In this document: positions 16,141-57,219 of the stretch, piece by piece | How the letters are laid out: every line of letters begins with the position of its first letter | How positions within the stretch are numbered: the first letter of the stretch is position 1 | DNA from: Squalus acanthias | Taxonomy: Eukaryota | Assembly (NCBI GenBank): GCA_030390025.1 | Contig: CM059432.1 | Coordinates: forward strand, 20,276,001-20,340,000 | Reading direction: 5' to 3' | Length of the DNA stretch: 64,000 nucleotides | Translations under genes and position numbers: made by a program | The notes under the pieces: model-generated | Databases searched by the model: none | What the model saw: the letters and a program-made list of their open reading frames with translations, nothing else | Told to the model about the DNA's origin: nothing

Positions 16141-16506
16141 ATTTCAGATCAAAACCACTGCCCCCATTTTGTCAGGCAGCAGCTGTTGGTAATGATTCTG
16201 CTATTCCTATTTACACCTCCTCAGACCCATCTTTTGTTTCTTTACTTGTCCCATTACCATCCCCTTTTGCCTTGCGCCATCATCCCTTCTGTCATTTAAT
16301 CTCTCCTGCCTGCCACCTTATCACAGACCTTCCCTTAAGTTCTTTCCTCCCCGCCCCCTTTCCCAGCCTCTGTAATTGCTTAAAACCTGTTACATCTCTA
16401 ACTTTTTCCAGTTCTGATGAAAGGTCATCAACCTGAAACGTTAACTCTGTTTCTCTCCACAGATGCTGCCTGACCTGCTGAGTATTTCCAGCATTTTCTG
16501 TTTTTA
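16141..16506 (+). mobile_element. Penelope-like element 3' fragment with 13-bp TSD
   Basis: Homologous to 56770-57181; TSD tctcccataagca at 16128-16140 and 16507-16519. Confidence 0.88.
16410..16446 (+). ncRNA. Minimal type I hammerhead ribozyme motif
   Basis: agtt-CTGATGA-a-aggt catca acct-GAAAC-GTT-aact: intact core, helix I agtt/aact, helix II aggt/acct. Confidence 0.75.
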
Positions 16507-16889
16507 TCTCCCATAAGCATATCGCTCAAGGATAGGTTGGATCGTGGAATGTAGCATTCATATATGTATCTGGTATTGAACTAATGTTGCACATTTGGGG
16601 GTTGGGGAAAGATTCTTCCAAAGATACAACTCCATTTTAGAAAAGTCTAGGATGCATGATCGCAACACGACGTTGCGGGGGAAAAGTCCTGAAACAGCTG
16701 CTCAGTGATCTTCTCCTCTTTCACGGTCTTTTTCTTTCTCTCCCTCTCTTGCTCTCTTTCTCTCTCAGTCTGTCCTTGTTACCATCTTTTGTTTCGTCCT
16801 TGTTTATCTCTCTCTCTCCTGTTTCCTTTGTGTTACTCCTCTTGTCTCTGCCAACTGCTGCTCTTTTCTCCAGTGATCTCTCACAACAG

Positions 16890-17015
16890 TACATAAGAAA
16901 TAGGAGCAGGAGTAGGCCATTCGGCCCGTCGAGCCTGCTCTGCCATTCAATAGGATCATGGCTGAAATTCTACCTCAACTCTACTTTCCTGCCCTGCTCC
17001 CAGATCCCTTGATTC
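16890..17015 (-). mobile_element. CR1 3' UTR fragment
   Basis: acataagaaataggagcaggagtaggccattcggccc. Confidence 0.85.
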
Positions 17016-17517
17016 GTTTAGTACGAGCATCAGGAATCAACACCAAAGTCACAGAATGAAATGGGAGGGATCTAGCAAGAGATAGAAAGGTTCATTTTCA
17101 ACTATACACACAATTTATTGTGCACTGAAACATCAAACCAAGGTTTAACAAAGAACGCGTGCATTTTGCTGCCACCTTCCAATGTTACAATGGCTTTTTA
17201 ACAGCAGCCTTCAGAACTCTTTCTCACCTCAAAATTGGCAGCATCAAGACAAAACGTTGGTTGTTACTTGACTAACGAGTACGTGAGTGGAGGTGTTAAA
17301 GTACAATAGGGGCCACCAGAGAAATATTTCAAAGTCTCTACATGCAGTGAGTCATATAAAGAAATCATGTCAACTGTATGAGATTCAAATATCAGTTCGT
17401 TTTCTTACATGTTCGTGCACGAACACAATTATTCTCTCCCCCTGAACTGTTGTTAACCCAACCTCAAAGCCTCAATGTGTACAATCCAGTCTGCAGTCAG
17501 AGTCTCTGTAAAATCAG

Positions 17518-17735
17518 GAGGAACATGGAGACAGTAGTAGGCCATTCAGCCCCTCGAGCCTGTTCCGCCATTCAATTAGATCATGGCTGATGTGTATCTT
17601 AGCTCCATTCACCCACCTTGGTTCCATATCCCTTAATATCCTTACCTACCAAAAATGTATCAATCTCAGATTTGAAATTTTCAATTGACCTAGCCTCAAC
17701 AGCTATTTGAGAGAGAGTTCCAGATTTCCACTACC
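17518..17735 (-). mobile_element. CR1 3' end fragment
   Basis: gtaggccattcagcccctcgagcctgttccgccattcaat...gagagttccaga. Confidence 0.8.
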
Positions 17736-19239
17736 TGACATCACCCCTGAATTAAGACTTATTTCCTGTTATAACGGTGATACTGGTATCTTCAGCTATG
17801 CAACTGCTACAGTATATGATTTGTGATGTATTTCTATCTTTGAAATGACAACTTTTTAAAATTATATTTAAAAAGTTAAAAACAAAGACTACAAGTCCAT
17901 TATTTATACATTGAGGAAAGTCCACAAACAGAAACAAATTCATATTTTGCATACTTCAATATTGCTGCTGAAGCTCCCATTCTTCCCCAGAATGTAAATG
18001 GAGTAAATGTATAATACCAACAGCTCTGCCATATTTCAGAACTACAATTTCGCAACATAAATAAAGTATGTAAAACAAATTGGGGAGGGGCATGAAAAGA
18101 GGAGTAGGAATCACTCACTTTGGGCTTAAGTCAAACAAAGTACGCCTGCACAATCCTTTCAGACATCAGTTCACAAATCTCTTTAACTCACGTAATACCA
18201 TCACAAGACACACAAACACATACTACACGAGATTACAGAGTCCAATCCATGAGGAGCAAATTGGAAAGCACTGCTCGATTTAATGGCAGGTCTAGATAAT
18301 ATGAATCTCCAATAATAAGGGCTATTAAGGGTAGTCCCAGCAGGTTCTTGCAAATGAGGTTCATTTGTATTGAGTTAAGAGAAGAACAGGCTTCAACAAG
18401 GCAAAGTGCAAAGAATATTAAAAGACATCTAAAACACAATCCTTAACATCTGCAAGTGATTCACTAACGTTATCTCATTAACCAATTTTCAGGGAAGTGA
18501 CAAACTGCTCATTCTCTTCCTTTGATCTCCCCATGCTTGGGAGAGACCGAAAATAAAATCAAAGGCTTAAAGCCCTCCTTAGGGCACTGGTAAAAGTTAA
18601 CACAGCAGAGATGATTAATCAATTAGAATAGATGAATCGGATATTAAAGCTTATGAACAGATTTAAAAAGCACACTGCCACAAGGACTGCCTGTGTGGCA
18701 ATGGTACGACTATATCTTATTTCGCACCCGAATCCCACTCTGAATGGGAACAATAAGCAGAATCTGAATGAGCCACTTATGTTTGTGGGTGCAGGTGAAG
18801 CTGATTCCGTTTAAGATTTAATGCCAGTTTAATGATCAAGTTGCAGTATTTGTGAAATCATTTCATATATGCCTGTGCCTGATGTCCATAAATACCTGTG
18901 TCTCAGTCAGACGCTTTCACAGCACTGTATGACCTGCACACAAGAAAAATCATATCGTGGGGAATTTATAGCTCTTTCTCAATTCCATGCGTGGTATTCC
19001 ATGGCTATTCTTAACTTTTCCAGAAGCAAATCCAATCCATCAACAGTAAATCTGACAGCACTGCTGAATTTACTGTAAAGATTAGATGTAATGAATCCCC
19101 AAATAAGGGTAGTCCCCGTAACTATCCTTTTTTGATAGATCTCAATCCTACATACCCACTCTCTCTTGATACCGCTGAATCCCTTTTCTCTTTTATTTGT
19201 TCTCACGATGCCGATGATGCTGGCAAGGCTGCATTTCTC

Positions 19240-19425
19240 CTTTTTAATTCGTTCACAGGATGCGGGCGTCGCTGGCAAGGCCAGCATTTATTGCCCATCA
19301 TCTTGCTAATCTCTAGTTGCTCTGAGAAGGTGGTGGTGGTGAGCCTTCTCCTTGAACCGCTACAGCGGATGTGCTGATGTTCCTCTTACAATGGTGTTTG
19401 GGAGGGATATCCGGGATTTCGACCC
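19240..19425 (-). mobile_element. 3' end of the A-tailed LINE family
   Basis: tttttaattcgttcacaggatgcgggcgtcgctggcaaggccagc matches 58566 onward. Confidence 0.75.
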
Positions 19426-20519
19426 AGAAGGAATCGAGTAAATTACTCCAATCAATCGTGAAAAGTTAGTCTGGTTAAATCCAACAAAATCGTTCTGTGC
19501 TAAATCTGAAGAAAGATTTACGCAACAGTACATTTTGAGTTTTTGCGAGGCAGACGCCATAAACATTTTAGGTACAACGCAAACACTAGATTTTAAAGTT
19601 CTAACAGCTAGTGGTTCAGTGACCAAAATAATTACTCAACATAGCCCTAAAGGCAGTGCTCTGGATCCCAGCCACACTGTACAAGTTCAAAAGACACAGT
19701 ATATATCAAAGAGAACTGAAAATTGGTCTATTAACAGAAATACTTAAGATTTATAATTTCAGTATTAGTCACTGTTAACGCCTTCATTCGTTTGCATAGC
19801 TCTGTTTTTGTTTCTGCTTATCTCTTCTCCCTGTTGTCCTAAAGTTGCTGACTCCTTCAAGGGCACAGCTGCTTGGGGGTATGATGCTCTCTTGCACCTA
19901 GTCTAAGTGGCCATTATTCACGGGTAAGCCTCGACGGTAAGCGTCAGTAGAGGGTCATCAGAATCAAGACCAATCCTCCCCACACCCAAGGTGCGTGGTC
20001 ACCAGTTATTGACCAGGAGCAGGAATCCTAGCTAATTTTCCTCTCTCTATCTAAGGGGCAGTGAGCTGAATGGGGTAGCGGCCCCACTGTCGCATCGACT
20101 ACAATTTGCTAACTCTGTGCAGACTAGAGAAGGAACCTGGGAGCCTCCTCGGTTGTACGGCTCGGTTACTCACTGACAGAAATGTCTGATTCCCATTGCG
20201 AGAGTTGTATCTGTAAACAACCCAGAAGCAGGCAACCCCCGCATTAATGAGGGTCACCCATTTCAGGAATTCCTGTATTTTACATGAAAATTTCCTTGCA
20301 TGCACATTCAGGAAGGACATTAATTGATCTACTACTGAATGGTAGCTAAAATAAAGTATTGGAAATGTACAGCAGGTTGATCAAACCTCAAAATTCTGAT
20401 GAAAATCAGATAAAAATTTAACAACTTTGACTTTTTGATCAGCCTTCTGTTTCCAATATTTTCTCTCTTTTATTTCAAATTTGCATATTTTCTTTTTAAC
20501 TGAGGGGTTATTAGTTTGA

Positions 20520-20825
20520 GATGCATTGCTTCAGCCCAATCTTCGTAGGCATCGGACCGTGTATGATATGAGCGGTTCATCTCAAACCTACCCTGCAGGC
20601 AGTGCTTCCAGCAGCTGCCATCCAAAGCCTCAAGAGTTTCCTCATCAGCCATATGACAACATTAGCCCTTCAGCACAGAACTTGTAAGACGTCAGCCAAT
20701 GCCATATATCAAGCTCATCAATCACCAACAGCTTAATTTAGGTCTCGATATGAGGAAAGGTTTTAAAAGATGTGCACCTGCTAAAAGGCTGATTTCCCCA
20801 TCCAGGATATGGACTGACAGATCGG
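20520..20825 (-). mobile_element. Old RTE-like LINE C-terminal fragment
   Basis: Minus-strand pieces ILDGEI...RPKL...ETLEALDGSCWKHCL resemble the RTE C-terminal pattern; heavily decayed. Confidence 0.4.
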
Positions 20826-20896
20826 TGTAACTTCCTTCTCTACAGCCATTTTCCTTTTATACCACAAATTTACTTTGTAGATTGATGCTTGACGCA

Positions 20897-21640
20897 TAGA
20901 ACCATAAATGTTTACAGCACAGCAGGAAGCCATTCGACCCATTGTCTCTGTGCCAGCTCTTTTCTAGAGCAATTGAAAACTATTCCCACTGCCCCGCTAT
21001 CTCCTCATATTCCTGTGCTTCAAATATTTATCGAATTGTCCTAAAAAATGCACCGGTCCCTGCCTCAACTCTTCCTATGTCAAAGCATTTCACATTCCAG
21101 CAATCTCTGCGTATAAAGATTTCTCTCAACCTCAATGCTTACATTTTAAATTGATGACCCCCCACATCATTGACTCCCAACCAAAGGAAATAGGCTTTTT
21201 CTATTCACTCTATCAAAACCTCTCAGAATTTTAGAAACCTCTATTAAAGCTCTTTTTAGCCTTTTAGTCCCGGTATCTCAAGTCTCTCCTCACATCTGTA
21301 GTTCTTCACTCTTGGCATCATCCCGGTGAATCTATACTGTATGTGGTTTATTACTTTAATGCTCTTTCTATAATGCACACAATACTCTGACTGTGGCCTA
21401 CTTTACTCTTGTACTCAATGCCCCTTTATGTAAAGCCCAAAATGCTGCTGGCCGTTTTTTTATGGCTTTATACCTACCTGCATTTGCACTTTAAGGGACT
21501 TGTATACCTTAACCCCAAGGCCCCTATGTTCCCCTGCACCCTCCAGCATCTTTTCATTGCGTATATACTCCCATTCTTTGTTTTTCCTCCCAAAATGCAT
21601 TACCTCACACTTCTCTGCCCTTCCATTGAAGGCCCAGGAG
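20897..21640 (-). mobile_element. CR1 LINE 3' portion, degenerate
   Basis: EKCEVMHFGRKNKEWEY...RGLGVKVYKSLKV; catagaaccataaa tail. Confidence 0.85.
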
Positions 21641-23710: not shown

Positions 23711-24965
23711 TATGACTTTAGCCACAGGGTCCCTGAGGTAAGGAGGGGAAAATCATCCCACGTTTCCACTATCCTGTCAGCCCTGTTTGAAACGCACGTG
23801 TGGAGGCTGGCTCCACTGTGACAAGCCCTGCGGACAAATAGGCCCCCCCAACTTCATTATCAAGACATGCATTTGAATAACAGCATTTAGTTCAAAGTAT
23901 AGGGGTGCCCATGGAACAGACCCACGCACGAAGTTGATAGCTCCAGAAAGGCACAAAGAAAATGTATTTGTTCCCTTGAAAGGTCCACTGCTTTTCATCT
24001 TTCAGACACTGGCTGACCTGCTGAGCATTTTTCGGTTTTTATTTCAGATTTCCAGCACTTGTATATTCCCTGTTAACTCACGTTATTATTGTTAAGAGTG
24101 CTCAGTAGCATTCAAAATATTTCAGACACTCATCTCAAGAGACATTTTTGCAATCTAGCTGAAATTGGCTACAGTGGATTTAACTGCTGTATTTAAAATC
24201 AGTACATGTCCCATTGCACAACGTACTTGGTCTTAATTACTCAACATACTTCAAAATGCCTAAAAGCATCCTTGTGGGCACTAATGATAAAGTCAAATCC
24301 TTACAAATTGCAAATCAAAGGCTTGCATGAAGAGGATTAGACTCAAGAAAACCTTGATGTATTTTCCAGTAATAGACAGGGCACAAGAGCAGTGTTTAAT
24401 GAACATATGGCAGCTAATAAGTAAAATTTATAATCTGACTCGTTCTATGATCACTGGGAGACAAGTTTGTAAGCCCCATACTCTGCTACAGCAAGGAAAA
24501 ACTTTACAGATTATGTTAATACTTAAAGCTGAACGCCAAAGTCTCCAACACCAACGCTGACCCAGTTAATTGCTCACCAACTCAAACCCAATACTTCTCC
24601 CCCTCAACACTCGTTCTTCTTTTCCTGAATGTGTTGTCTCATACTGCAGTATGGTTCGCTAATGCCAAAAGCCTCACACAGGCACCTCACTCAAGTTACC
24701 CTTCTACAGTGAGTACTGGCAGGCTATTTCACCATGGAATCGTCACTTTCAAGCCTGGGCATCAGTTAGTTGCACCTCAGCCAAGGTATTGATGACAATG
24801 AGGAGCAGGAATCATGGGTGACACTCACGTCATGGGTAATGAGGCCAATTGGAGTGCCACCGAGCTGAAGCAGCACAAATTTGGGGCCAGCTTGGGCTGA
24901 ATGGGTCAGTACCACATATCCCCCCCAAGAGGAGGTACAGGAGGAAGAGAATCTTCAGAGAGTTT

Positions 24966-30822: not shown

Positions 30823-31599
30823 GCTGCAACTCCCTTCACCAGACTTACTACCTAGGTAAATGTTCAGTAATGTGCCCAGGACAATGAACAATCAACTCTG
30901 GTCTGTCAATTATTTTTACACTACTGGAATTATTCTTGTGCCTGCACAGGGCCTATCTCCAATCCTCAAATAAGTGTTGCAGCCTCACATCAGATTGCAT
31001 TCAAGTTTTAAACTATTAGGCAAATGTACTAAAGAATGAAGAAGCAAATATGTAATAATATCATTACAGCAGGAATGCCTCAACATGGAAAAGAAAAGGC
31101 TGCAAATCTAATCCATAGATCCACCAATAGTGTTTACTACATAGCCTCCATCTTTCTTGTCTCCTTGCGGGCTGAAAGAACCAGCTAAAATCTACTTGCC
31201 TTTCAAAGAAAATGTCAGTTTGTTCTGTTCAACACACTCTGAGGACAGTTGTGTGTTCGGTCCATTGTTATAACGTGCCTGGCCTGCTGCTGAAGGCTCC
31301 TTAGAAAATCATGACTGCCAGCCTCATTCAAATGGCAACAATCTGTCATATTTATAACGGAACTAATCATAAAGGCTGTAAGTATTTGAAAATGGTGCGC
31401 TTGACTCTCTCTCAAGCTTGTTGCCAAGGAAACTATAACAATAAACTTTGTGACAAAAGTAATGAAATCGGTTTGCGCCTACAGGAGGCTTTTTTAAGAT
31501 CTCGTGCACTGCGTCTGATTTAGATAGCTACCAGGGCAAAAGAAGACAAAAAATAAAAACAGAAAATGCTGGAAATGCACAGCAAGTCAGTGAGCAGCT

Positions 31600-31790
31600 C
31601 TGAAACTGTGCCCCTCTACCTCTCCGCCTCTCTCTACTCCTTTTGACACTCCTTAAAACCTACCTCTTTGGCCAAGCTTTCGGTCACCTGTCCTAATGTC
31701 TCCTTATTTGGCCCTGGGTCAAGTATTTTGCCGAATTGTTCTCCTGCAAAGCACCTTAGGACATTTTACGACGTTAAAAGGTGCTATCTC
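31600..31790 (+). mobile_element. L2 3' end
   Basis: ccttaaaacctacctctttggccaagctttcggtcacctgtcc. Confidence 0.75.
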
Positions 31791-32529
31791 ATAGAATGAT
31801 ACTGCACAGGAGGAGGTCATTTGGCCCATCGTGCCTGTGACAGCTCTTTGGTAGAACCATCCAACTCGTCCCACTCCCCCGCTCTTTCCCCAGACCCCTG
31901 CAATTTTTTTCCCTCCATGTATTTATCCAACTGCCTTTTGAAAGTTACGACTGAACCTGCTTCCACCGCCCAGCGCATTCCAGATCACAACAACTCGCTT
32001 TTACGTCCACCTGACAGGGCAGACGGGGCCTCGGCTTAACGCCTCATCTGAAAGACGGCATCTCCAACAGTGCGGTTGCACTGGAGTGTCAGCCTAGATT
32101 TGGGGCTCAGGTTTCTGGAGTGGGACTTGAACCCACGAGTGAGCCATGACTAGCACGATGTCTAAAGAAAAAAAATGTTTTATAGTTTTTTGCTGCTGTT
32201 TATGAGAACATACCTGAAACATTGCAACCTCTTCTTTCCTTTTTACAAATACTGACTGCTCGCCTGTGTACTGCCAGCATTTTTGATTTTGATTTTCGAT
32301 TTCCAGCATCTGCAGATTTTTCTTTTGCATTAAACAAGACAGAACTTCGCAAAATGGCCGGGGGCGGGGGGGGGCGGAATTTACCAAATAAAGAACTGAG
32401 CTTGTTGGTCTTTTCCTGTTCCCAAAATGTTCCACATTCCAATCAGATAATTCAGCACAAATCAGGATCAAATCTGCCACATTCCTGGTTTTAAAACTCA
32501 GTACTACACCATACAAAAGAAAAAAAAAA

Positions 32530-35372: not shown

Positions 35373-35377
35373 TCCCT

Positions 35378-36032: not shown

Positions 36033-37349
36033 CCTTATTTTGTCATATTCATTGCCCTGTTTGCATTGATGATGCAGCTAATTTCTTTTGTACTACAGTT
36101 AAAAGATATTGGCCCTTTAAATCTTCCTTATTTTGAGGGGGGTGTGGGTCAAATTATAGTAATTATTGAAGTGTTTGGTGCCATTTTGCCAGTGTTCAAA
36201 GCTGTGCACGGGAAAGAATAATTACAAAAAGATTACACACACCTGGCAAGGCTGTGCAAGTGAAAACCAGTAATTAGGAAGAAAAGGAACCACAATCTTT
36301 CAAAGCCCATTTCCCCCTGTACACCTTATTTACATTCAACACATCGGCAAAGATTACTACTCCACACAAGAGATGGTATTCAAAAAAATAATTTCCGAGA
36401 CACCTGCGGATAATCTAATTGTTTGTTGCAAATCCCAAGTGTGCAGCATGTCTTTGGATATTACAATTCTCCTAATGTATTGCAAGATGACTTCGCAAAT
36501 TATCTTTTGTAAAATTACCAGAAAAGGGGAAGATTAATGAGCATGTACAGCAGTGTAATCGGATTAGGCAGAAGTTTTAATACATTTTAAATGTAAATTA
36601 GCTATAGGGAAAGATCATTACTGATGAACACAACGCCATCTGGATACTTCAACTCGTCTTTATTTGACTTGATAACATTTTATTGTTATAGGCCCAAAAG
36701 CCGATGCAACACTTCCCCATTGACCGCTTCCCTCACCATTATCCAGGCACCCAAACACAACATCTGTGTGAGAAAACAATGTATGTGTCCTTCCTTTAAT
36801 CCAGCATACTTATTGCTCATGGGGCAGGCTCCTTGACATAGGAGAGACCAAACAGCGATTAGGCATTCATTTTGCAACACCTCGGTTCTATCAATAAGTG
36901 CGAGCTTGGCCTCACCATAGCAACACTTTAACTCCTCCTTGCGGCCTCTCTGGTGTTTGGTCCAACCAAGCACGATGCGAACTTCTGAAATAGCAGGACC
37001 AATTTCCCTGGGGTCCCTGGGAATGAGTGCTATGCGCAGAAAAATACAATGTCCTGTTGGGATTAATTTGCATGTTGCGAGCATCATGTGAGTGGGTGCA
37101 AAGGCCCGCTATTTGGTGAGTCAGGTGGGCCTAGAATATTGAAGGTGTTAAAAGAACTGTGGCTGCTTAAAGAGGCCGGAACATCTTGGAGTGTTGGGAG
37201 AGGCTATGGAGGGAACAGGGAAATCTGAGCCTGGGAGAGCAGTGTGGAAATGTTCAACTTGCAGATACATATCCTGAAGTAATTTTTGCCAGAAGGTAAT
37301 TTTTTTTTTTTTTTGAAGTGGCAAAGTAAAGGAACAAGATTTTGTGGCA

Positions 37350-37581
37350 TAAAAACAGAAAATGCTGGAAATACTCAGCAGGTCAGGCAGCATCTGTGGA
37401 GAGAGAAACAGAGTTAACGTTTCAGGTCGATGACCCTTCGTCACTTCTGACGAAGGGTCATCGACCTGAAACGTTAACTCTGTGTCTCTCTCCAGAGATG
37501 CTGCCTGACCTGCTGAGTATTTCCAGCATTTTCTGTTTTTATTTCAGATTTCCAGCATCCGCAGTATTTTGCTTTTGTATT
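37350..37581. mobile_element. Palindromic Penelope-like insertion (94-bp arms) with 14-bp TSD
   Basis: Arms 37350-37443 and 37448-37541 (2 mismatches seen), loop cttc, 40-bp unpaired 3' extension; TSD aagattttgtggca at 37336-37349 and 37582-37595. Confidence 0.92.
37443..37479 (+). ncRNA. Hammerhead motif with helix I truncated at the palindrome axis
   Basis: actt-CTGACGA-a-gggtc atc gacct-GAAAC-GTT-aact; core intact but only 2 contiguous bp of helix I remain. Confidence 0.55.
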
Positions 37582-42015: not shown

Positions 42016-42674
42016 TACTTCCAAGAAAAGCACAATTCTTACAATATTTGTAAATCATCATCGGAATCATCCTGGATCTAAAATTCCTGTTCGAGCTAAG
42101 AGCACCTAAATTGGATGGGCCAAAGATTATGGTAATACTCTGCACTTTCCATTCTTTGAAAATGACTGTCTGATTATTAATTTGGAATGAGGAATTGTGG
42201 TTTGGTGATTCTCAAGCTGAAATGAAGCAATCAAAATTGCAAATCCTTTTGATTTGCCTAGAGTCTTCTTTCACAGCAGAGAAAATGATTTGATCCAAAC
42301 CGTTTAAAAAATGAATATTTCAGGCATGAGGTGCTGGGCAAGATAGTCTCCCCCCTCCAACAGCAGTCACAAAGGAAAGGAGGCCGTCCATTTTGTGGAG
42401 CCATTGTACCGCTGCCAGCTCCTGTAGCTTTGTGAAAATAATGTAGATTAGGCAAACCCTGGCCTCCACACTCCAAATGGAATCAGTTCACTATGTTCAT
42501 GTGGGTAGCTAAATAGGTTAAAGATATTAAACTATATCAGGAGATACAACAGTTGTATCATACAAATGAAGTAGTTCATATTTGGGGAGGCCGGGGTAAT
42601 ATTTATTCATAATAACAACAGAAAACACTGGAAAAACTCAGCAGGCCAGGCAGCATCCGTGGAGAGAGAAACAG

Positions 42675-42711
42675 AGTTAACGTTTCAGGTCGAAGACCTT
42701 TCGTCAGAACT
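42675..42711 (-). ncRNA. Minimal type I hammerhead ribozyme motif (left arm)
   Basis: Exact reverse complement of 43000-43036. Confidence 0.75.
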
Positions 42712-42999
42712 GGCAGGAAATTCTGGTAAAAGGGAGAGGGGATGAAAGAACAAAAGGCAAGGTCAGTGGTGGGATAGAAAGCAGGAGAGATTAAGATAAT
42801 CAAGGCAAGAGGAGGTGGTAATGTGACAGGTAGAGGCTAGATGAAGTGTGAAGCGCAGTTCACACTTCATCTAGCCTCTACCTGTCACATTACCACCTCC
42901 TCTTGCCTTGATTATCTTAATCTCTCCTGCTTTCTATCCCACCACTGACCTTGCCTTTTGTTCTTTCATCCCCTCTCCCTTTTACCAGAATTTCCTGCC

Positions 43000-43036
43000 A
43001 GTTCTGACGAAAGGTCTTCGACCTGAAACGTTAACT
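43000..43036 (+). ncRNA. Minimal type I hammerhead ribozyme motif (right arm)
   Basis: agtt-CTGACGA-a-aggtc ttc gacct-GAAAC-GTT-aact. Confidence 0.78.
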
Positions 43037-43211
43037 CTGTTTCTCTCTCCACGGATGCTGCCTGGCCTGCTGAGTTTTTCCAGCGTTTTCTGTTGTTATT
43101 TCGGATTTCCAGCATCCACAGTATTTTGCTATAATATTTATTCATGTTACCCTTCTCTGCATAGTTGATACATGCAAGATGCATAGATTATAATAATTAA
43201 TGGCAAAAATG

Positions 43212-43395: not shown

Positions 43396-44123
43396 GTTGC
43401 GATGCCCTATGTGGTTTAATAGCCTGCTGAAGGTCACGTATGAAGAATTTCCAATTGGAAAAGCTTATGGAGAATGTCCAGAATCCATCAAACTGTATCC
43501 CAGCAATAATCAGCACCTTGCAGGGAGGTGGGGGAGAAATAGAGGCAGAAGTTTTCAACCACCTCCGCATCAACTAATCCACTGAATCAGCTGTTAAAAT
43601 ACAACCAATGTTGGTCAGTAAATTTGTCTTGAAACTTCACATATAAATAGTCAATGTGTAGCATGTTAGATTTGCTGTTGGCCTTAACTGCCAAGTAATC
43701 CATGGGGAGTGCCAAAACTAAATTTTAGCTTGAAATAACATCAGATAGTGAACCCTTTTTAAAGACTGCAATTTTACCAGCAAAACATACTCATTTTACA
43801 CTGTCATATTATATGTGGATCGCTATCATTTAAAATCAAAAAGTTTCACAAATCCAGCAGCCCCAATTCCCAAGCAATGCTTATAGCTAAACTGATGCTT
43901 GCATCAATAGCCAATGTGTTCTTTCTGTTACAGCTCCCACATCAATGGCTTGAAGATCCTGGCCAGGAAACGGAACGATCGGTACTGTACGGGCAGCTGA
44001 TGTTGCAGGCCTCTGCCCTCCATTACCTGAGAATTTGAGATCTCATTTTCTTTGGTGATTTTTAAAATGTAGACATTTGCTTCCCTCAATACAAGCGCCT
44101 TTATCGTAGCAAAACATTAAATA

Positions 44124-44415
44124 GCAGCTGTCCTTCATTCTGCCAGTGCATTTCACACTTCTTTTAGCCTCAACCTGTCACATTAACACCTCCGCTTGCC
44201 TTGATCATCTCTTAATGTCTCGCAATGTCTCTAATCTCTCCTTTTGTTCTTTCACCCCCTCCCCCTTTTCCCAGCTTTATCCTTGCTTTAAATCTATTTC
44301 ATTTCCTGCTTTTTTCCAGTTCTGACAAAAGGTCTTCGACCTGAAACGTTAACTCTGTTTCTCTCTCCACGGATGCTGCCTGGCCTGCTGAGTTTTTCCA
44401 GCGTTTTCTGTTGTT
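44124..44415 (+). mobile_element. Penelope-like 3' fragment, hammerhead core mutated
   Basis: Homologous to 42859-43100; motif at 44318-44354 reads CTGACAA (G8 to A); probable TSD acattaaata at 44114-44123 and 44416-44425. Confidence 0.85.
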
Positions 44416-45727: not shown

Positions 45728-48370
45728 ATTACATAGGATATATGGCACAGAAACAGGCCATTCGCCCCAACCAGTCAATGCTGGCATTTATGCTCCACAC
45801 GAGCCTCCTCCCGTCTTTCCTCATCTAACTATCAGCATAACCCTCTATTCCCTTCTCCCTCATATACTTGTCCAGCCTCCCATTAAATGCATCTAAACTA
45901 TTCACCTCAACCACTCCCTGTAGTAGCGAGTTCTACATTCTCACCACTCTCTGGGTAAAGAAGTTTCTTCTGAAATCCCTATTTGATTTCTTGGTGACTA
46001 TCTTATATTGATGGCCTCAAGTTATGCTCTTCCACACAAATGGAAGCATTAGGCCAGAAATTCGGCTCCCTGGCTTCCCGCGGGTGCTTACATACCGCGC
46101 CTGCCGTTGTGCTTCGGGCCCGCGTGGAATTCGGCTCCTGGGCCTCCTCCAGCTGCCGGCGCGCAGTGCTTGCGTATCCCAGGGGCGCAGTTAGTTCGAA
46201 GCATCCCCTGGGATCATGTGGGCCATGGAAAGCCAATCGAAGCAGGGAATCTTCATTCATAGATTTGACAGGAAGACCTGTCAAATCTATGAATAGAGAT
46301 CGGCCCCAAATCCTCACTAAAACTTCAAATAAATTTAAAAAAAAACATCACATTTTTAAAATAACTATAAATTACATAAATTAACTAATTTAAACAAAAA
46401 TTTAAATTTTTGAAAAAAATTATTTTTTAACAGTGCTAAAAATAAACTTACCTTTCTTTAAAGTATGTAAAAAAGATAAACCTGTTGAAAAAATGTTTAA
46501 ATTGTACTTAATTCACCACTTACCTTGTTAAAAGCAGGCCTTGCGCTTCCTTTTTCCCCGCGTAGCTTCTCCGTACTTACCCTCACGGAGAAACCTGAAA
46601 AAAAAAACCGAAGTTCGAGGTTTACGTGCTGCCTCTCCGGCGCACACGTCGACCTCTGAACCCCTTCCTTCAGGGGAACGGAAGTTCCGGTTTCCAGCGC
46701 ATGCGCGAAACCGGCACTTTCATTGGGTCTACAGGTGAGTACCCAGCGCGTACTCACCCGTGGAGACCCGAATTTCTGGCCCATTCTCTCTGTATCCACT
46801 CTATCAAAACCTATCATAATTTTAAAGACCCCTATTAGGTCACCCCTCAGCCTTCTTTGTTCAAGCGAAAAGAAACCCAACCTGTTCATCCTTTCCTGAT
46901 AGGTATGCCCTCGCATTTCTGGTATCATCCTTGTAAATCTTCTCTGCACCCTCTCCAGTGCTTCTATATCCTTTTTATAATATGGCGACGCAGGATTCTA
47001 CGCAGTACTCCAAGTGTAGTCTAACCAAGGTTCGATATATGTTTTGCATTATCTTCAGTACGTTTCAATTCTATCCCTCTTGAAATAAATCCTAGTGCCT
47101 GGCTTGCTTTTTTTATGGCCTTGTTAACCTTTGTCGCTACTTTTAGTGATTTGTGTATTTGTACTCCACGATCCCTTTGCTCCCCTACCCCACCCAGACT
47201 CGCACCCTCCAAGTAATAAGTGACCTCCCTATTCTTCCTACCTAAATTTAATACCTCACATTTATCGGTGTTGAATTTAATTTGCCCATTATATGCCCAT
47301 TTGGCAAGTTTATTAATGTCTTCCTGTAATTTGTTGCAGTCCTCCTCAGTATTAACTATACCCCCAATTTGGCGTCATCCACAAATTTAGAAATTGTGTT
47401 TTTGATTTCAAAGTCTAAATCGTTAATATACAGTGGTCCCAGCCCTGATCTTGTGGAACACCACTACCCACCTTCTACCACTGTGAATAGCTACCCTTTA
47501 CCCCTACTCTCAGCTTTCTGACTTGAAACCATCCAGCAATCCATTCTGTTACTTGTCCCGACTCCGCATTCTCTGACATTATTCATTGGTCTATTATGTG
47601 GTACCTCATCGAAGACCTTTTGAAAATCTAGATAAATTACATCTACTGCATTACCCTTGTCTATTCTCTCTGTTACCTCTTCAAAAAATTCAATAAGGTT
47701 GGTCAAGCAAGACTTTCCCTTTTGAAATCCATGCTGACTATTCATTACTATATTTTTGGCTTCTAGATGTTCTTCTATTTTCACCTTTAGTCGGGATTCC
47801 ATTAATTTTCCTACCACCGATGTTAAGCTGACTGGTCTATAGTTCCCTGAACATGTTCTATCTCCCTTCTTAAATATCGGCATTACGTTAGCTATCCACC
47901 AGTCTTCTGGCACGACACCTTTTTCTAATGAATTATTAAATATGTGCAGTAATGCCTCTGCTATCTCTTTTAAAATGCGTGGTTTTTTTTTCCTCTTTGA
48001 GTTTGATTTGTTTATTTAATATATCTCCTCTTTTTATTTTAAATGCACTTAGCTCATTACTAATCTCATGATCCAATGTCATGTCCACCTGTTCCAACAC
48101 CGTGGTAAATACTGGGGCAAAGTAATTATTTAATATTTCTGCCATCTCTATCACTGCCTGTGGTATTATCCTATCCATCCCTTAGTAGTATCCTGTCCAT
48201 CCCTTGGTAGCCCTATTCCAATCCCGGCATTCCTTTTTTTAATTGATGTGCCTGTAAAATATTTTACTATTTTGTTTTATGTTCCTTGATAATTGAATTT
48301 CATAGTTCCTCTTTGCCTTCCTAATTGTTTTTTGTTGACTTCTCTAGTAATCTTTTCATATTTTCCCTTT
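45728..48370 (-). mobile_element. CR1 LINE ORF2, degenerate, interrupted by a MITE
   Basis: PEDWWIANVMPIFKKG..NYRPVSLTSVVGK...QHGFQKGKSCLTNLIEFFE...YLDFQK; C-terminus QRRFTRMIPEMRG. Confidence 0.92.
46051..46782. mobile_element. PIF/Harbinger-type MITE, 732 bp, nested in CR1
   Basis: TIRs ggccagaaattcgg / ccgaatttctggcc; 3-bp TSD att at 46048-46050 and 46783-46785; CR1 is contiguous once it is removed. Confidence 0.88.
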
Positions 48371-48724
48371 AGAGCTTCTTAATGCATTATTTGCATTATC
48401 AATAAATTCTAAAACTCTGATTGTTTCTCCTGTCAAGGAAGTTACATTGGTATAGATGTATGATTTTCTAGATACTCCACAATTACAAAATCTATGGAGT
48501 GTGAGCTCGTTGGGAGAGCCAATTCCTTTTTGAATTTCTTATGACAGTGTTTCACTCGCCACATGCTCAACTTCCACAGCAGAACATGAAGCTAACTTGT
48601 AGGAAGGTTCCCACACTGAGCTAAACATGGGAGCAGGGGTGCTCCTCCCGACAACACACTAAAAGAACGTGGACCATACCCTCCCTCTCCTACCACCTCC
48701 CCCTCAAGCCCGTTCATCCACCCT

Positions 48725-50528
48725 TCCCTTGCAGTCAGAAGCGGGGGAAGATATAATGGGGAACAAAGAAATGGCAGACCAATTAAATGCATATTTTGGT
48801 TCTGTCTTCACAAAGGAGGACACAAATAACCTCCCACAGATGTTGGAGAACATACGGTCTGATGAAAGGGAGGAACTGAAAGAAATCAGTATTTGCAGGG
48901 AAATGGTGTTAGGGAAATTGACGGGATTGAAGACCGATAAATCCCCAGGGCCTGATAATCTACATCCTAGGGTACTTAAGGAAGTGGCCCTAGAAATAGT
49001 AGATGCATTGCTGATCATCTTCCAACATTCGATGGAATCTGGAACTGTACCCATGGATTGGAGGGTAGCTAATGCTACCCCACTATTCAAAAAGGGTGTT
49101 AGAGAGAAAGTGGGGAATTACAGCCTGACATCGGTATTGGGGAAAATGCTAGAGTCCATTATAAAGGATGTAATAGCTGAGCACTTGAAAAACAGTGATA
49201 GGATCGAACAAAGTCAACATGGATTTACAAAAGGTAAATCGTGCTTGACTAATCTACTGGAATTTTTTGAGGATGTAACTGGGAAAATAGATAAGGGAGA
49301 ACCAGTAGATGTAGTGTATTTGGACTTTCAAAAGGCTTTCGATAAGGTCCCGCATAAGAGATTAGCGTGTAAAGTTAAGGCACATGGGATTGGGGGCAAG
49401 GTATTGACTTGGATAGAGAACTGGTTGGCGGACAGAAAGCAGAGAGTAGGAATTAATGGGTCTTTTTCCGAGTGGCAGGCAGTGACTAGTGGGGTACCGC
49501 AGGGTTCGGTCCTTGGACCCCAGCTATTTACAATATACATTAATGATCTAGATAAGGGAACTAAATGTAATATCTCCAAGTTTGCAGATGACACAAAGCT
49601 GGGTGGGCGTGTGTGCTGCGAGGAGGGTACCGAGAAACTCCAGGATGATTTGGAATGGTTGGGTGAGTGGGCAGAAGCGTGGCAGATGCAATATAACATG
49701 GATAAATGCGAGGTTATCCACTTTGGTGTCAAAAACAGAAAGGCAGACTATTATCTGAATGGCAATAGATTGGGAGAAGGGGAAGTGCAACGAGACCTGG
49801 GTGTCCTTGTGCACCAGTCGCTGAAGGTAAGCATGCAGGTGCAGCAGGCGGTGAAGAAGGCAAATGGTATGTTGGCCTTCATAGCGAAAGGGTTTGAGTA
49901 TAGGAACAGGGATGTCCTGCTGCAGTTGTACAGGGCCTTGGTGAGACCACACCTTGAGTACTGTGTGCAGTTTTGGTCGCCTTATCTGAGGAAGGATGTT
50001 CTTGCCATGGAATGAGTTCAGCGAAGATTCACAAGGCTGATACCTGGGATGGCAGGAATGACATATGAGGAGAGATTGGGTCGATTGGGCTTATACTCGC
50101 TGGAGTATAGAAGAATGAGAGGGGATCTCATCGAAACATATAAAATTCTGACAGGTCTGGACAAACTAGATGCAGGAAGAATGTTCCCGATGGTCGGAGA
50201 GTCCAGAACCAGGGGTCATAATCTAAGGATAAGGGGTAAGCCATTTAGGACAGAAATGAGGAAGAATTTCTTCACCCAGAGAGTGGTGAACCTGTGGAAT
50301 TCTCTACCACAGAAGGTAGTTGAGGCCAAGTCATTAAATATATTCAAGAATGCGTTAGATATATTTCTTAAAGCTAAAGGTATCAAGGGATATGGGGAGA
50401 AGTCAGGTACAGGGTACTGAGATTGGATGATCAGCCATGATCTCATCAAATGGCGGAGCAGGCTCGAGGGGCCGAATGGCCTACTCCTGCTCCTATCTTC
50501 TATGTTTCTATGTTTATGTTTCTATGTT
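48725..50528 (+). mobile_element. CR1 LINE, 5'-truncated, reverse transcriptase domain nearly intact
   Basis: ORF 48669-50015 with [39 protein letters not shown]; one premature stop at 50013, continuation 50049-50420; 3' UTR and (tttctatg)n tail. Confidence 0.97.
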
Positions 50529-52297: not shown

Positions 52298-52794
52298 ATG
52301 GATTGGGAGTGGCTTCAATTTTTTTCCCCCTCCCTTTCTTATGAGGAAATACCTAAGCTGTTTCCTGCACCTTCCTTTGAGAGGCAAGACCAACGTTGGA
52401 GACTTGTATTTTTACATAGCTTCATGAATTGTTCTAGTTTGGATATGGTGTAGGTTGTAAAAAAAAAATGAAACCTTTCATAATAGATATTGAGGGTGGA
52501 GCACAAGTGTTGGGCCGATGGCACCACTTAAACCACCTCCGCCAAGGTGCACTGAAGATACGGCACAATTGCTTTCCAATTTCTGCAGTCAGATACTGAG
52601 CTGCTTAACCTAAAGATCCCGTTCCGAACATCTGCACCATTTGGCCAAAGTACAAATGAATGGAAAAAAAATACAATGAATGGAGAATGGCAGCTGCTGG
52701 TGTCAAAAACAGTGTGAAAGCATCAGCCAAGCACCTTTTCACTTCCACAAGCATAACTGCTGCACTTGATTCAGGTTTGATGGCAAGTGTATGA

Positions 52795-53328
52795 ATACAA
52801 GGATAGGCGCACCAACGTCAGTGTTCTCGCTCAGGCCAACATCCCCAGCATCGAAGCTTTGACGACGCTCGATCAGCTCCGATGGACGGGTCACATCGTC
52901 CGCATGCCCGATACGAAACTCCCAAAACAAGCGCTCTACTCGGAGCTCCGACACGGCAAGAGAGCCCCAGGTGGGCAGAGGAAACGCTTCAAGGACACCC
53001 TCAAAGCCTCCTTGAAAAAGTGCAACATCCCACCGACACCTGGGAATCCCTGGCCCAAGACCGCACAAAGTGGAGGAGAAGCATCTGGGAAGGCGCCAAA
53101 CACCTTGAGTCTCTTCGCTGGGAGCAAGAGGAAGCCAAGCGCAAGCAACGCAAGGAGCGCACGTCAACCCAAACACCCCACCCCACCCGCCCCTTCAACC
53201 ACTGTCTGCCCCACCTGTGACAGAGACCGTAGGTCCCGCATTGGACTCATCAGTCACCTGAGAACTCATTTTTAATGTAGAAGCAAGTCATCCTCGGTTC
53301 CGAGGGACTGCCGAAGAAGAAGACGACG
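52795..53328 (+). mobile_element. RTE (BovB-like) LINE 3' fragment
   Basis: DRRTNVSVLAQANIPSIEAL...QLRWTGHIVRM...CPTCDRD.RSRIGLISHLRTH; gaagaagaagac tail. Confidence 0.93.
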
Positions 53329-54737
53329 AGGACAAGGTAAAAACTTTAGCAGTGAAATCCAAAGTCTGAAGCCTAAATATAAATATTAGCAGTTTCCATT
53401 CACGGAGGGCACAAGTGTAACACTGAGAATTTATCTCCTTTTCACTTAAGTATAAAATAATTGTCTCACACCGCCACCAGCCTGATGTAACAGTTGCTGC
53501 AATCTACATGTTAATATGTATTTGATTTAGTTATCATGCTACTGTCGCACTACCAAGTGCTGTTCTTGCTCCATCAAACTGACAGTGTGAAATGAATGCT
53601 GAAAGCCTGTGCTCGATAACCCCCCCCCTGATTTTGAGTGGTTTGCATTTTAAAAATTGATGGACGGCTCAGACCAATTTCTCTTAAAATTAAAATCAAG
53701 TTAATTTTGACGACTAAACAATGTTCTCGGATGCAGTAAATGACAGATTTTCTTCACTTTATGCCCCACATGAATAAAAGCACACCAAGAGGAGGAGACA
53801 ATTAAATGGTAATTTGCTAAATGCTAAACAAATACAATCCCTACACCTGGTTGGGACCGGCAGGACGCATTAACACACAAGAATAATTTCCATAATGAGT
53901 TTCTATATATATTATATATTTCTTCCTTATTTTCTTAGCTAGCTCTGTTTGCAGGATAGTTTCCCTAAAATGTAAGCTCATTAAAGAGCATTAAAAATAT
54001 TAAAAGTATGTTGGCATTGAGCTTTTAGTCTGTACAGTAAAATCAGCAGCTGCGATTACAAGACAGAGGTTGTTGTCTTTTGGGGTCAGGGAAGGAGTAA
54101 TGCTTACGGTCTGGGATGGGTTAATGCCTATACGGCTGGCAGCAGATCAGGGTTGAACAGCAGAGATATGAGGATTGGAAAATATTTCAGAATCTGTGCG
54201 AGGATCAGGGGATATTTAAGCAAAACTTTTTCCTCAGGAGATTAATGGTGGGGGTGGGGGCAGGTGAGATCCTTTACGTCCACCTGAGGGGGCAGACGGG
54301 GCCTCGGAAATCCTAAGAAAATTGTTGGCATAGATCATTATTGGGAGTTCAAAATACAGCAATCCTCCCAAATTAATAATGAAGTTTAAGCCCACAATAG
54401 AGGTTCATTTCAGAGCATTTCTTTAAGGAAAATTTGATACTTTTCCAGTGGAAAATTCCAGTTTTCCCCAATTAGGATTTGATCACATCCAGAAGATCCG
54501 GAAATGACAGATAAAAGGAATTCTTCATGTTACTCTTGACAAATGAAGACAGGTCAAATTCCAAATCCAGAGAATTTCAGCTCAGGAATCTACCCATAGA
54601 AATCATAAAGCAGGTACTGTATTATGAAGTACCTCAAGAAATTACACAGTAACTGGAGAAGGAATTCACCTCAGGTTCCTCTAATAGTAAGCAAAAAAAC
54701 AATTGAGGTCTTGGTAAATTTTTTTTAGAGCTTCTAT

Positions 54738-55165
54738 TAGGAACATAGGAACAGGAGTAGGCCATTCAGCCCCTCGAGCCTGCCTGCTCCACCATTCAAT
54801 GAGATCATGGCTGATCTGTGACCTAACTCCATATACCCGCCTTTGGCCCACATCCCTTAATACCTTTGTTTAACGAAAAGTTATCAATCTCTGATTTAAA
54901 ATTAACAATTGATCTAGCATCAATTGCCATTTGCAGAAGAGTTTTCCAAACTTTTACCACCCTTTGTGTGTAGAAGTGTTTCCTAATTTCACTCCTGAAA
55001 GGTCTGGCTCTAATTTTTAGACTATGGCCCCTAGTCCTAGAATCCCCAACCAGCGGAAATAGTTTCTCTCGATCTACCCTATCTGTTCCCCTTAATATCC
55101 TGAAAACTTCGATCAGATCACCCCTTAACCTTCTAAATTCTAGGGAATACAACCCTAATTTGTGT
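54738..55165 (-). mobile_element. CR1 3' portion
   Basis: YSLEFRRLRGDLIEVF...TRGHSLKIRARPFRSEIRKHFYTQRVV. Confidence 0.9.
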
Positions 55166-55464
55166 AAGTGAATACAGAGGACTAGAAAAAAAAGAAAATG
55201 TTATCCTGATATTCCGCAAAGGATTGGTACATGAATCATGGAACCACAGACCAGTTCAACATTCATCGGTAGTGGGTAAAGTGCTCAAGAACATCAATGT
55301 TCACCTGAAGAGTGCAAAGCCTTAAGGAGTAGCATGGAGTTCGAAGCATTTCTCATTAACACTAGGCCAGATTTTGCTGAAAAAACTAATGGTGTTATTA
55401 ATGTGCAAATTGGCCAGCAACATGTAGCAAGGAAGAGATACCCCATGAATTGCAAATCACTAGG

Positions 55465-55917
55465 AAGAAAGACTTGTATTTATAAAGCGCCTTTCACGAC
55501 CACCGGACATCTCAAAGCGCTTTACAGCCAATGAAGTACTTTTGGAGTGTAGTCACTGTCATAATGTGGGAAACGCGGCAGCCAATCTGCGCACAGCAAG
55601 CTCCCACAAACAGCAATGTGACAATGACCAGATAATCTGTTTTTGTTATGTTGGTTGAGGGATAAATAGAGCCAGGACACCAGGGATAACTCCCCTGCTC
55701 TTCTTCGAAATAGTACCATGGGATCTTTTACGTCTACTTGAGAGAGCAGTTTAACATCTCATCCGAAAGACGGCACCTCCAACAGTGCAGCGCTCTCTCA
55801 GCACTGCACTAGAGTGTCAGCCTAGATTTTTGTGCTCAAGTCTCTGGAGTGGGGCTTGAACCCACAACCTTCTGACTCAGAGGCGAGTGCGCTATCCCAC
55901 TGAGCCACAGCTGACAC
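55465..55917 (-). mobile_element. Deu-domain tRNA-SINE, near full length
   Basis: Collinear with 33634-34095. Confidence 0.9.
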
Positions 55918-56508
55918 TCAACTACAAGTTGCTGGACGATTTGTGCCGTTTCACCCATTAGCTTTGTGAAAACGGCATCTCGCCCTTAAACTCCCCGTGA
56001 TTTTCATGAAGTTGCTGCATTTCCACATTAATTGTTCATTAAACTCGCCACAAAAAATTACACCTAGTCATTAGCAGCGTAAGTAGCCTTTTAAAAATGT
56101 GATAATTGTTAATGACTGCCAATCAATCTCTCTTGCCCAGAAGGTAAATAATTAGAAGTGCGGAGTCTCGTTCAATAGAAACCAGAATGTGACAAAAGAA
56201 AAAAGCTGTAACTGGGGACCAGTGACCAGTGGCTCAGTTGGTAGCACTCTCACCTCTGAGTCAGAAGGTTGTGGGTTTAAGTCCCACTCCAGAGACTTGG
56301 GCACAAGTTGCTGCACAAGACACTCCAGTGCAGTATTAAAGGAGTGCTGCACTTTTGGAGGTGGCTTCCTTCGGATGAGACATTAAACTGAGGCCCTGTC
56401 TGCCCTCTCAGGTAAAAGATCTCATGGCACTATTTGAAGAAGAGCAAGGGAGTTAGCCTCAGTGTCCTGGACAATATTTACCCCTCAAACAACATCATTA
56501 GAACAGAT

Positions 56509-57219
56509 CTCATTGGTTTCCTCTACATTGGGGAGACCAAACGCAGATTGGGTGACCGCTTTGTGGAACACCTCTGTTCAGTCCGTAAGGGTGACCCCCG
56601 AGCTTCTGTTCGCCTGTCACTTTAATTCTCCGCTACACTCCCACTCAGACCTCACCATCCTCGGCCTCTTGCATTGTTCCACGGAAGCTCAGCGGAAGCT
56701 CGAGGAACAGCACCTCATCTTTCGATTAGGCACTTGACAGCCTTCTGGACTCAACATAGAGTTCAACAATTTCAGATCATAACCTCGGCCCCTCTCATAT
56801 ATATATTTTTCATCCACACTTTTTGTCTGTGCCTTTTTTTCTTTTCTCCCACATGGCAGCCGTCTTTCATTCTGCCAGCACAATTTACACTTCATCTAGA
56901 GCCATCCTTTGTTTCTTAACCTGTCCCATTACCATCTCCTTTTGCCTTGAATATCTCAATGTCTCTTGATCTCTCCTGCCTTCTATCCTATCACAGACCT
57001 TCCCTTTTGTTCTTTCATCCCCTCCCCCCTTTCCCAGCCTCTACACTTGCTTAAAAATCTGTTCCATTTCCTGCTTTTTTCCAGTTCTGACGAAAGGTCA
57101 TCGACCTGAAACGTTAACTCGGTTTCTCTCTTCACAGATGCTGCCTGGCCTGCTGAGTATCTCCAGCATTTTCTGTTTTTATTTCAGATTTCCTGCATCT
57201 GCAGTATTTTCTTTTTGTG
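56509..57219 (+). mobile_element. Penelope-like element, 5'-truncated: GIY-YIG endonuclease C-terminus plus 3' repeat, 14-bp TSD
   Basis: LYIGETKRRLGDRFVEH...HFN..HSHSDL...QRKLEEQHLIFRLGT.QPSGLN (one frameshift, one stop); TSD tcattagaacagat at 56495-56508 and 57220-57233. Confidence 0.93.
57083..57119 (+). ncRNA. Minimal type I hammerhead ribozyme motif
   Basis: agtt-CTGACGA-a-aggtc atc gacct-GAAAC-GTT-aact, downstream of the GIY-YIG ORF. Confidence 0.78.

What the first reader, a model, noticed from the sequence alone, without database searches (positions are those of the whole stretch)
16141..57219. Family of Penelope-like insertions each carrying a minimal hammerhead ribozyme with a GUU site
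Seen: five TSD-bounded insertions (16141, 37350, 42611, 44124, 56509) share agtt-CTGAYGA-a-(a/g)ggtc-N3-(g/a)acct-GAAAC-GTT-aact. The 56509 copy links this motif to a GIY-YIG endonuclease remnant. Helix II stays paired while its loop varies (atc/ttc, and a G-U pair in the 37443 copy). Known: Penelope-like elements carry minimal type I hammerheads whose helix III is reduced to a short palindrome and which are thought to work as dimers. Inference: helix III here is the self-complementary AACGTT and the cleavage triplet is GUU rather than the usual GUC. This would be an abundant, possibly cleavage-competent ribozyme family, with about 4 intact motifs in this 64 kb.
Basis: partly seen in the sequence, partly recalled or inferred. 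Interest (0 to 1): 0.7.

Follow-up and report, generated by a model that had tools for sequence, protein, structure and literature searches.

The report
Penelope retroelement hammerheads, shark-like genome
These are end-pieces of a very abundant Penelope-type jumping gene carrying a tiny self-cutting RNA motif of an already described kind, and although the motif likely forms the very start of the element's RNA, its GUU cut site is an ordinary allowed one and only one copy in this window looks fully fit to cut.

Summary
In detail: five insertions with 10-14 bp target duplications carry seven motif copies (0.01 expected by chance). They belong to a Neptune-type Penelope-like element with 43,340 exact motif matches genome-wide and an intact 1,004-residue RT plus GIY-YIG copy bearing a hammerhead in each terminal repeat. 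This pairing, the extra base after A9 and the palindromic helix III are published (Cervera and de la Pena 2014). GUU obeys the NUH rule, and a GUC subfamily exists. The core never varies between subfamilies, while helix pairs change conservatively; the usual G10.1-C11.1 pair is mostly A-U or G-U. 'About 4 competent motifs' is too many: three whole-core copies sit inside long fold-back hairpins, one is G8A, one has a broken helix II pair, and none has an intact same-strand partner in its insertion. Short copies start mostly at the motif's first bases, about 30 nt after a TATA-like box, so the ribozyme likely begins the RNA and is mostly copied uncut. Evidence for cutting in vivo is inconclusive. 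The scan noted this system before, in this genome and others. New member of a known kind; interest 0.3.

The parts
16141..16506 (+). Insertion 1: whole pseudo-LTR (pLTR) of the element, ends at the short 3' end; 13-bp TSD at 16128 and 16507
16410..16446 (+). Hammerhead motif, core whole, innermost helix II pair is C-A; helix II probability about 0.3
37350..37581 (.). Insertion 2: fold-back mini-insertion, 95-nt arms, both arms start in the first bases of the motif; tail on one side; 14-bp TSD at 37336 and 37582
37445..37479 (+). Hammerhead motif with G-U at 10.1-11.1, helix I cut to 2 pairs, trapped in the fold-back hairpin
42611..43131 (.). Insertion 3: fold-back, 242-nt arms, tail on one side; 14-bp TSD at 42597 and 43132
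42675..42711 (-). Hammerhead motif, whole, in the inverted arm (trapped)
43000..43036 (+). Hammerhead motif, whole, in the forward arm (trapped)
44124..44415 (+). Insertion 4: 5'-truncated pLTR, short 3' end; 10-bp TSD at 44114 and 44416
44318..44354 (+). Hammerhead motif with G8A at 44327 (CpG-type change)
56509..57219 (+). Insertion 5: endonuclease remnant, whole pLTR and tail; 14-bp TSD at 56495 and 57220
56512..56782 (+). C-terminal GIY-YIG endonuclease remnant, broken by one frameshift and one stop
57051..57057 (+). TATA-like box, 32 nt before the first base of helix I (inferred promoter)
   Evidence: present at -32 to -29 in 40 of 40 copies that keep this region
57083..57119 (+). Fully intact minimal type I hammerhead: helix I 57083-57086 with 57116-57119, core from 57087, extra A 57094, helix II 57095-57107 (A-U closing pair), ACGU palindrome 57111-57114, predicted cut after 57115; 57083 is the inferred transcript start
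57180..57219 (+). About 40-nt optional tail beyond the short 3' end
   Evidence: tail in 51 of 98 copies

Best explanation
The five insertions are truncated or folded-back end-pieces of a high-copy Neptune-type Penelope-like retrotransposon whose terminal repeat carries the known minimal hammerhead, which likely forms the first 37 bases of the element's RNA and would cut only slowly, as a dimer or with help from the element's protein. Shown: family, architecture, copy number, structure-keeping variation between subfamilies, 5' ends piled at the motif's start, a TATA-like box about 30 nt upstream. Inferred steps: (1) a promoter in the pLTR starts RNA at the first base of helix I; (2) reverse transcription starts about 100 or 140 nt downstream (short end and tail) and mostly copies uncut RNA, running off its 5' end to give minis and fold-backs, or reading through the downstream hammerhead to give longer copies; (3) the monomer is predicted to rest in an inactive hairpin, and cleavage after GUU (or GUC) would need two motifs pairing through ACGU or protein-assisted folding as in the anole element; (4) selection acts on source elements, and the scattered copies are neutral passengers. 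Identity as a PLE minimal hammerhead about 0.95; this working model about 0.6.
For: 43,340 exact motif matches and 79,242 of the downstream flank in 3.71 Gb, 0 in reversed controls. L051: 1,004-aa open frame with RT, CX4CxxC linker and C-terminal GIY-YIG, a hammerhead in each flanking repeat; the linker matches Neptune rows and is absent from Penelope/Poseidon rows of PMC8557442 supplement. In 67 of 98 flank-picked copies that span the motif, 0 of 10 non-CpG core positions vary above 10%, against 10 of 21 upstream and 3 of 17 downstream positions; N7, loop II and N17 vary; 10.1-11.1 is A-U 46, G-U 29, G-C 2, non-pair 6 of 83; 2.1-1.1 is U-A 72, U-G 5 of 77. G-C subfamilies with G-U or A-U at 10.2-11.2 and a shorter loop exist. 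In contigs of four other organisms only two variants of 10% or more fall inside 57083-57119, both giving G-U pairs, against 8 places in 57121-57136, 2 of them private to the window copy. 29 of 97 copies start within -7..+10 of C3 (1.6 per nt) against 18 in -250..-21 (0.08 per nt); 4,649 genome matches have the motif but foreign sequence 7-10 nt upstream, and 60 of the 100 listed start at -5..-3 (counted by eye). Published: minimal hammerheads in Neptune and other fish PLEs, monomer inactive, dimer weakly active (PMC4209133); anole hammerhead cuts only with protein, and uncut RNA is the main insertion template (PMC11167929).
Against: No cleavage or transcript-start data were obtained. The G10.1-C11.1 pair called highly conserved in PMC4209133 is nearly absent, and A-U copies look youngest (median distance to third-nearest copy 0.0, n=74, vs 0.031 for G-U, n=41, and G-C, n=25; confounded by sample size), which fits weakening. 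The dimer in its active shape scores -9.7 kcal/mol against -22.9 for the best cofold (nearest-neighbour energies ignore core contacts). The core could be conserved as promoter DNA. RT and GIY-YIG Pfam scores are below the curated cut-offs (23.7 vs 29.6; 20.9 vs 22.6). The upstream flank figure includes alignment noise. Starts at 0..+10 (16 of 97) blur the inferred start site.
Confidence: 0.62

Rival explanations
1. The motif is a catalytically spent relic in the dominant subfamilies and is kept as promoter DNA (initiator and downstream element) or as a protein-binding site.
For: It overlaps the inferred start site; G10.1-C11.1 is kept in 2 of 83 copies; the monomer's best fold pairs the core with the cut site; hammerhead mutants do not affect insertion of the anole element in vitro (PMC11167929); Naiad PLEs spread without canonical hammerheads (PMC8557442 passages).
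Against: Variation between subfamilies and organisms keeps RNA pairs through G-U wobble and falls on N7, loop II and N17 (U or C, almost never G), as the ribozyme rules predict and a DNA element would not.
Confidence: 0.2
2. The two hammerheads of a tandem or full-length transcript dimerise efficiently, release a unit-length RNA and circularise it, and the circle is the main template (model of Cervera and de la Pena).
For: Full-length and tandem copies have two same-strand motifs about 3.2-3.6 kb apart (L051, L054, L057). 172 genome matches begin at the predicted cut site against 58 and 47 one base either side. 2 of 97 copies start exactly there.
Against: Of the first 30 cut-site loci, 8 are fold-backs equally explained by run-off at the RNA start plus snap-back through helix I, and 5 are small internal indels; at most 17 remain, leaving at most about a twofold excess over unsorted neighbours. 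The +2 site gives 173, dominated by transposon ends and CT slips. Starts at the motif's first bases are far commoner. Published dimer activity is low.
Confidence: 0.15

Closest known systems
Minimal type I hammerheads (min-HHR) in pLTRs of metazoan Penelope-like elements (Cervera and de la Pena 2014, PMC4209133)
   Same: Core boxes, extra base between 9 and 10.1, 4-bp helix I, no loop III with palindromic 15.2-16.2, location in both pLTRs, mostly single dispersed copies, opposite-strand pairs 100-700 bp apart, reported in Neptune elements of fishes.
   Different: 10.1-11.1 is A-U or G-U instead of G-C in 75 of 83 copies; helix II has 5 pairs (7-8 in the Schistosoma families); 43,340 exact copies against about 4,000 and 9,000 reported for coelacanth and Xenopus; no cartilaginous fish named in the text read (one supplement file could not be searched, figures not seen).
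Neptune-clade endonuclease-positive PLEs (PMC8557442)
   Same: One ORF with RT, CX2-5CxxC linker and C-terminal GIY-YIG; pLTRs; inverted 5'-truncated arms; 30-40 nt tail on one end.
   Different: No tree was built; placement rests on the linker and domain order.
Poseidon element PAc of Anolis carolinensis (Frangieh et al. 2024, PMC11167929)
   Same: Hammerhead at the pLTR-ORF junction, two 3' ends a tail apart, uncut RNA as main template.
   Different: Other clade (no linker zinc finger); its ORF starts at helix II, whereas here a 2-nt-shorter subfamily and ACG at the core ATG point to a start codon downstream of the ribozyme (inferred).
Animal non-LTR retrozymes (PMC7229834; bioRxiv 10.64898/2026.07.22.740005)
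   Same: Type I hammerhead, link to PLE pLTRs.
   Different: Those are short head-to-tail arrays, mostly with canonical hammerheads; the five insertions here are single or inverted pieces with their own TSDs.

Membership tests
EN+ Penelope-like element, Neptune type | Single ORF with RT and C-terminal GIY-YIG endonuclease | tested here: met
   L051 1,004-aa frame; Pfam RVT_1 E=4.6e-5 and GIY-YIG E=4.4e-4, both under curated cut-off
EN+ Penelope-like element, Neptune type | Direct pLTRs flanking the ORF | tested here: met
   L051, L054, L057
EN+ Penelope-like element, Neptune type | CX2-5CxxC linker between RT and endonuclease | tested here: met
   CX4CxxC in L051, compared by eye with supplement rows
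EN+ Penelope-like element, Neptune type | Optional 30-40 nt tail and inverted 5'-truncated arms | tested here: met
   tail in 51 of 98 copies; fold-backs
EN+ Penelope-like element, Neptune type | RT groups with Neptune in a tree | not tested
   no reference RT sequences were fetched
PLE minimal type I hammerhead | CUGANGA, GAAA and UH core | tested here: met
PLE minimal type I hammerhead | Extra base between 9 and 10.1 | tested here: met
   A in 62 of 64 aligned copies
PLE minimal type I hammerhead | Palindromic 15.2-16.2, no loop III | tested here: met
   ACGU; C-G with CpG decay
PLE minimal type I hammerhead | Short helix I (4-5 bp) | tested here: met
   4 pairs, A-U to G-U variant at 1.1
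PLE minimal type I hammerhead | G10.1-C11.1 (typical trait; listed in the paper among features outside its search descriptor) | tested here: not met
   G-C 2, G-U 29, A-U 46 of 83; G-C subfamilies exist among 1,434 matches
PLE minimal type I hammerhead | Cleaves as dimer or with protein | not testable with these tools
   junction evidence inconclusive; no raw RNA reads laid
Non-LTR retrozyme | Short head-to-tail array, one hammerhead per unit | tested here: not met
   no same-strand pair within any of the 5 insertions

The most novel reading that the evidence does not exclude
The hammerhead is the capped first 33 bases of the element's mRNA and acts as a protein-triggered decapping switch: once the element's own protein binds, cleavage after GUU removes the cap about 20 bases before the first conserved AUG, ending translation and changing which templates are copied; the youngest subfamilies detuned it by trading G10.1-C11.1 for A-U.
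Probability: 0.2. Interest if true: 0.65.

Novelty: new member of a known kind. Interest (0 to 1): 0.3.

Why it matters
What PLE hammerheads do in vivo is still open (PMC8557442 passages). This family offers tens of thousands of copies, an intact source frame and natural variants (GUU/GUC; G-C, G-U, A-U at the helix II base), so it is good material to test that question.

Tried and rejected
Rfam scan of the window at E up to 1: 20 matches, no hammerhead family; the best are microRNA models on the fold-back hairpins, all below gathering score. RNA evidence: no RNA holder on record among 23 runs; the one raw-read RNA run laid 0 reads; contig runs cannot show ends, so no verdict on expression, splicing or cutting. 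Intron idea (acceptor just before the AUG, branch point at the cut site): rejected because the AG is not kept across subfamilies (CAG, CGG, TCG) and no GT..AG joint on the element's strand was listed among 15 joints shown, 43 not shown. Core-versus-flank conservation across genomic copies: no difference after diagnostic sites are set aside. A supposed subfamily without the GAAA box proved to be DNA-transposon insertions. Four other CUGANGA..GAAA strings in the window (1996, 48859, 61520, 41153; plus 17795) lack the family context and were treated as chance; 48859 lies in a LINE RT frame. The TATA tally was circular (panel picked on it) and was redone without that selection. Lunse et al. (PMC5785218) was not held. 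One search failed and was rerun. Two of the first 100 flank-picked places were not fetched (98 used).
Full report
Observation. The motif pattern gives 7 matches in the window at up to 3 mismatches, against 0.01 by chance: 16414+, 37444-, 37447+, 42707-, 43004+, 44322+, 57087+ (position of C3). They fall in five insertions with exact target duplications of 13, 14, 14, 10 and 14 bp. The 56509 insertion begins with the end of a GIY-YIG frame, broken by a frameshift and a stop. Insertions 2 and 3 are fold-backs with 95- and 242-nt arms, in which the motifs are predicted to be trapped (helix I probability 0.0). The 16414 copy has a C-A mismatch in helix II. Only 57083-57119 is whole and free, and it has no same-strand partner in its insertion.

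The element. The genome (3.71 Gb) holds 43,340 exact motif matches and 79,242 matches of a 21-nt downstream flank, with 0 in reversed controls. A search with the endonuclease remnant listed 150 scored matches; I fetched 14 of those with long open frames and 6 motif clusters. [quoted passage not shown] The linker and its spacing match the Neptune rows and not the Penelope/Poseidon rows of the alignment in the PMC8557442 supplement (by eye). No tree was built. Copies end at two points about 40 nt apart; 51 of 98 have the tail, the PLE hallmark tied to two internal RT starts in PMC11167929. The host is called shark-like only from recalled repeat resemblances and earlier scan notes.

Is the motif under selection? 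I took the first 100 places of the downstream-flank search, which does not look at the core, and obtained 98. 32 of 98 have a whole core and all helix pairs; 26 are cut inside the motif. In the 67 that span it, non-CpG core positions mismatch at 20/651 and non-diagnostic downstream positions at 23/926 (p=0.53): copies decay neutrally. Between subfamilies the picture differs: 0 of 10 such core positions vary above 10%, against 10 of 21 upstream (noisy alignment) and 3 of 17 downstream. Variation falls on N7, loop II, N17 (U 82, C 6, G 1, unaligned 1) and on pairs that stay paired: 10.1-11.1 A-U 46, G-U 29, G-C 2, non-pair 6; 2.1-1.1 U-A 72, U-G 5. A descriptor that demands G-C finds 1,434 matches (59 in its control), with further subfamilies that have G-U or A-U at the second pair or a shorter loop; 2 of the 100 listed end in GUC. 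Contigs of four other organisms show only two variants of 10% or more inside the motif, both making G-U pairs (changes near contig ends are not listed). So GUU is the family norm, allowed by the NUH rule (PMC9217987 passages), and interchangeable with GUC. The real oddity is loss of G10.1-C11.1, which PMC4209133 calls highly conserved; A-U copies look youngest, though sample sizes confound this.

Where copies begin. Of 97 copies placed, 13 start at -7..-1 and 16 at 0..+10 from C3, 5 at +11..+25, 5 at +26..+32, 6 at -20..-8, 18 at -250..-21, and 34 run further. Genome-wide, 4,649 matches have the motif with foreign bases 7-10 nt upstream; by eye 60 of the 100 listed start at -5..-3; among 30 of these loci 9 are fold-backs, 7 have a TSD and 14 were not resolved. 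A TATA-like box lies 29-32 nt before the first base of helix I in 40 of 40 copies that keep the region, and that base sits in an initiator-like context (consensus recalled). I infer that the RNA starts there and that RT runs off its uncut 5' end. This lead came from earlier scan notes and was tested here.

Is there a trace of cutting? 172 matches begin at the predicted cut site, 58 at +1, 47 at -1 and 173 at +2 (the last dominated by transposon ends and CT slips). Of the first 30 cut-site loci, 8 are hairpins whose turn is the helix I complement and can be read either way, 5 are internal indels, and 17 remain (6 other fold-backs, 2 transposon ends, 2 ORF joints at one place, 7 plain junctions, 2 with a TSD). 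No RNA reads could be laid. Folding: the 37-nt monomer's best structure pairs the core with the cut site (-9.1 kcal/mol against -5.9 for helices I plus II), and the active-shaped dimer scores -9.7 against -22.9 for the best cofold; such energies ignore core contacts but fit low activity.

Mechanism. Most likely a pLTR promoter starts the RNA at helix I; RT primes at nicked target DNA and starts at the short end or the tail; it mostly copies uncut RNA, giving minis, fold-backs and longer 5'-truncated copies. The hammerhead is kept in source elements as a weak ribozyme needing a partner motif or the element's protein, as shown for other PLEs. Rivals: spent relic kept as promoter DNA (0.2), efficient dimer cleavage with circular templates (0.15).

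What is known. PMC4209133 (parts 1-2 of 4 read; 2 supplement files searched, file 1 not searchable, figures not seen) reports these motifs in Xena, Poseidon and Neptune elements of fishes and in thousands of copies in coelacanth and Xenopus. PMC11167929: parts 1-2 of 4 read, 3 supplement files searched without hits. PMC8557442: passages, a supplement search and supplement part 54 of 59. PMC6765202, PMC6155905, PMC7229834, PMC9217987 and bioRxiv 10.64898/2026.07.22.740005: passages only; the preprint sampled one cartilaginous fish and its supplements are closed. Lunse et al.: title in a reference list only. Searches for a description in sharks returned nothing specific, but unseen supplements may hold one. 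The scan itself has 529 notes holding these words in at least 33 genomes and 813 fitting notes in this genome; they are unchecked and add no support.

Verdict. Real feature, new member of a known kind. Interest 0.3; the boldest open reading (a protein-triggered decapping switch) has probability about 0.2 and would merit 0.65.

Noticed in passing
L175, L179, L180, L184, L185, L187, L200 (G000 C1): 470-850 nt GC-rich elements with short terminal inverted repeats sit exactly at the cleavage triplet and duplicate its 3 bases; 20 of 30 loci end in such a terminus just before the triplet, and 7 of the 8 with the left half found have this layout. Harbinger-type MITE by recalled features and earlier scan notes; transposase not tested.
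   Followed up: partly
L232, L234, L238, L245, L247, L248, L250, L254: Hairpin insertions whose turn uses the 4-nt helix I complementarity: likely cDNA that ran off the RNA start and primed on itself.
   Followed up: partly
L251/L252 (G000 C1:238943203-238943540): Tandem piece in which the early ORF is joined back to the exact predicted cut site.
   Followed up: no
L103, L109, L119, L133, L141, L166: A subfamily with GUC instead of GUU on one shared haplotype.
   Followed up: partly
window 13763-13823, 24003-24057, 31551-31604, 32212-32326: Four older, 72-83% identical pieces of the same 3' end without a whole core.
   Followed up: no
L063-L065 (G000 C1:6.99-7.13 Mb): Arrays of about 1.7 kb units each holding an endonuclease remnant and pLTR with the same host flank; likely later duplication of host DNA.
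   Followed up: no
L097, L091: Other, more distant hammerhead-bearing families with different helix II (one with G-C and GUC).
   Followed up: no
window 56220-56500; 47491-50420; 58955-59800; 10538-11074: A tRNA-type SINE hosting insertion 5, and CR1- and L2-like LINE RT remnants; names are recalled resemblances and are my only own basis for calling the genome shark-like.
   Followed up: no
window 4029-5099: About 1 kb G-rich low-complexity tandem tract.
   Followed up: no
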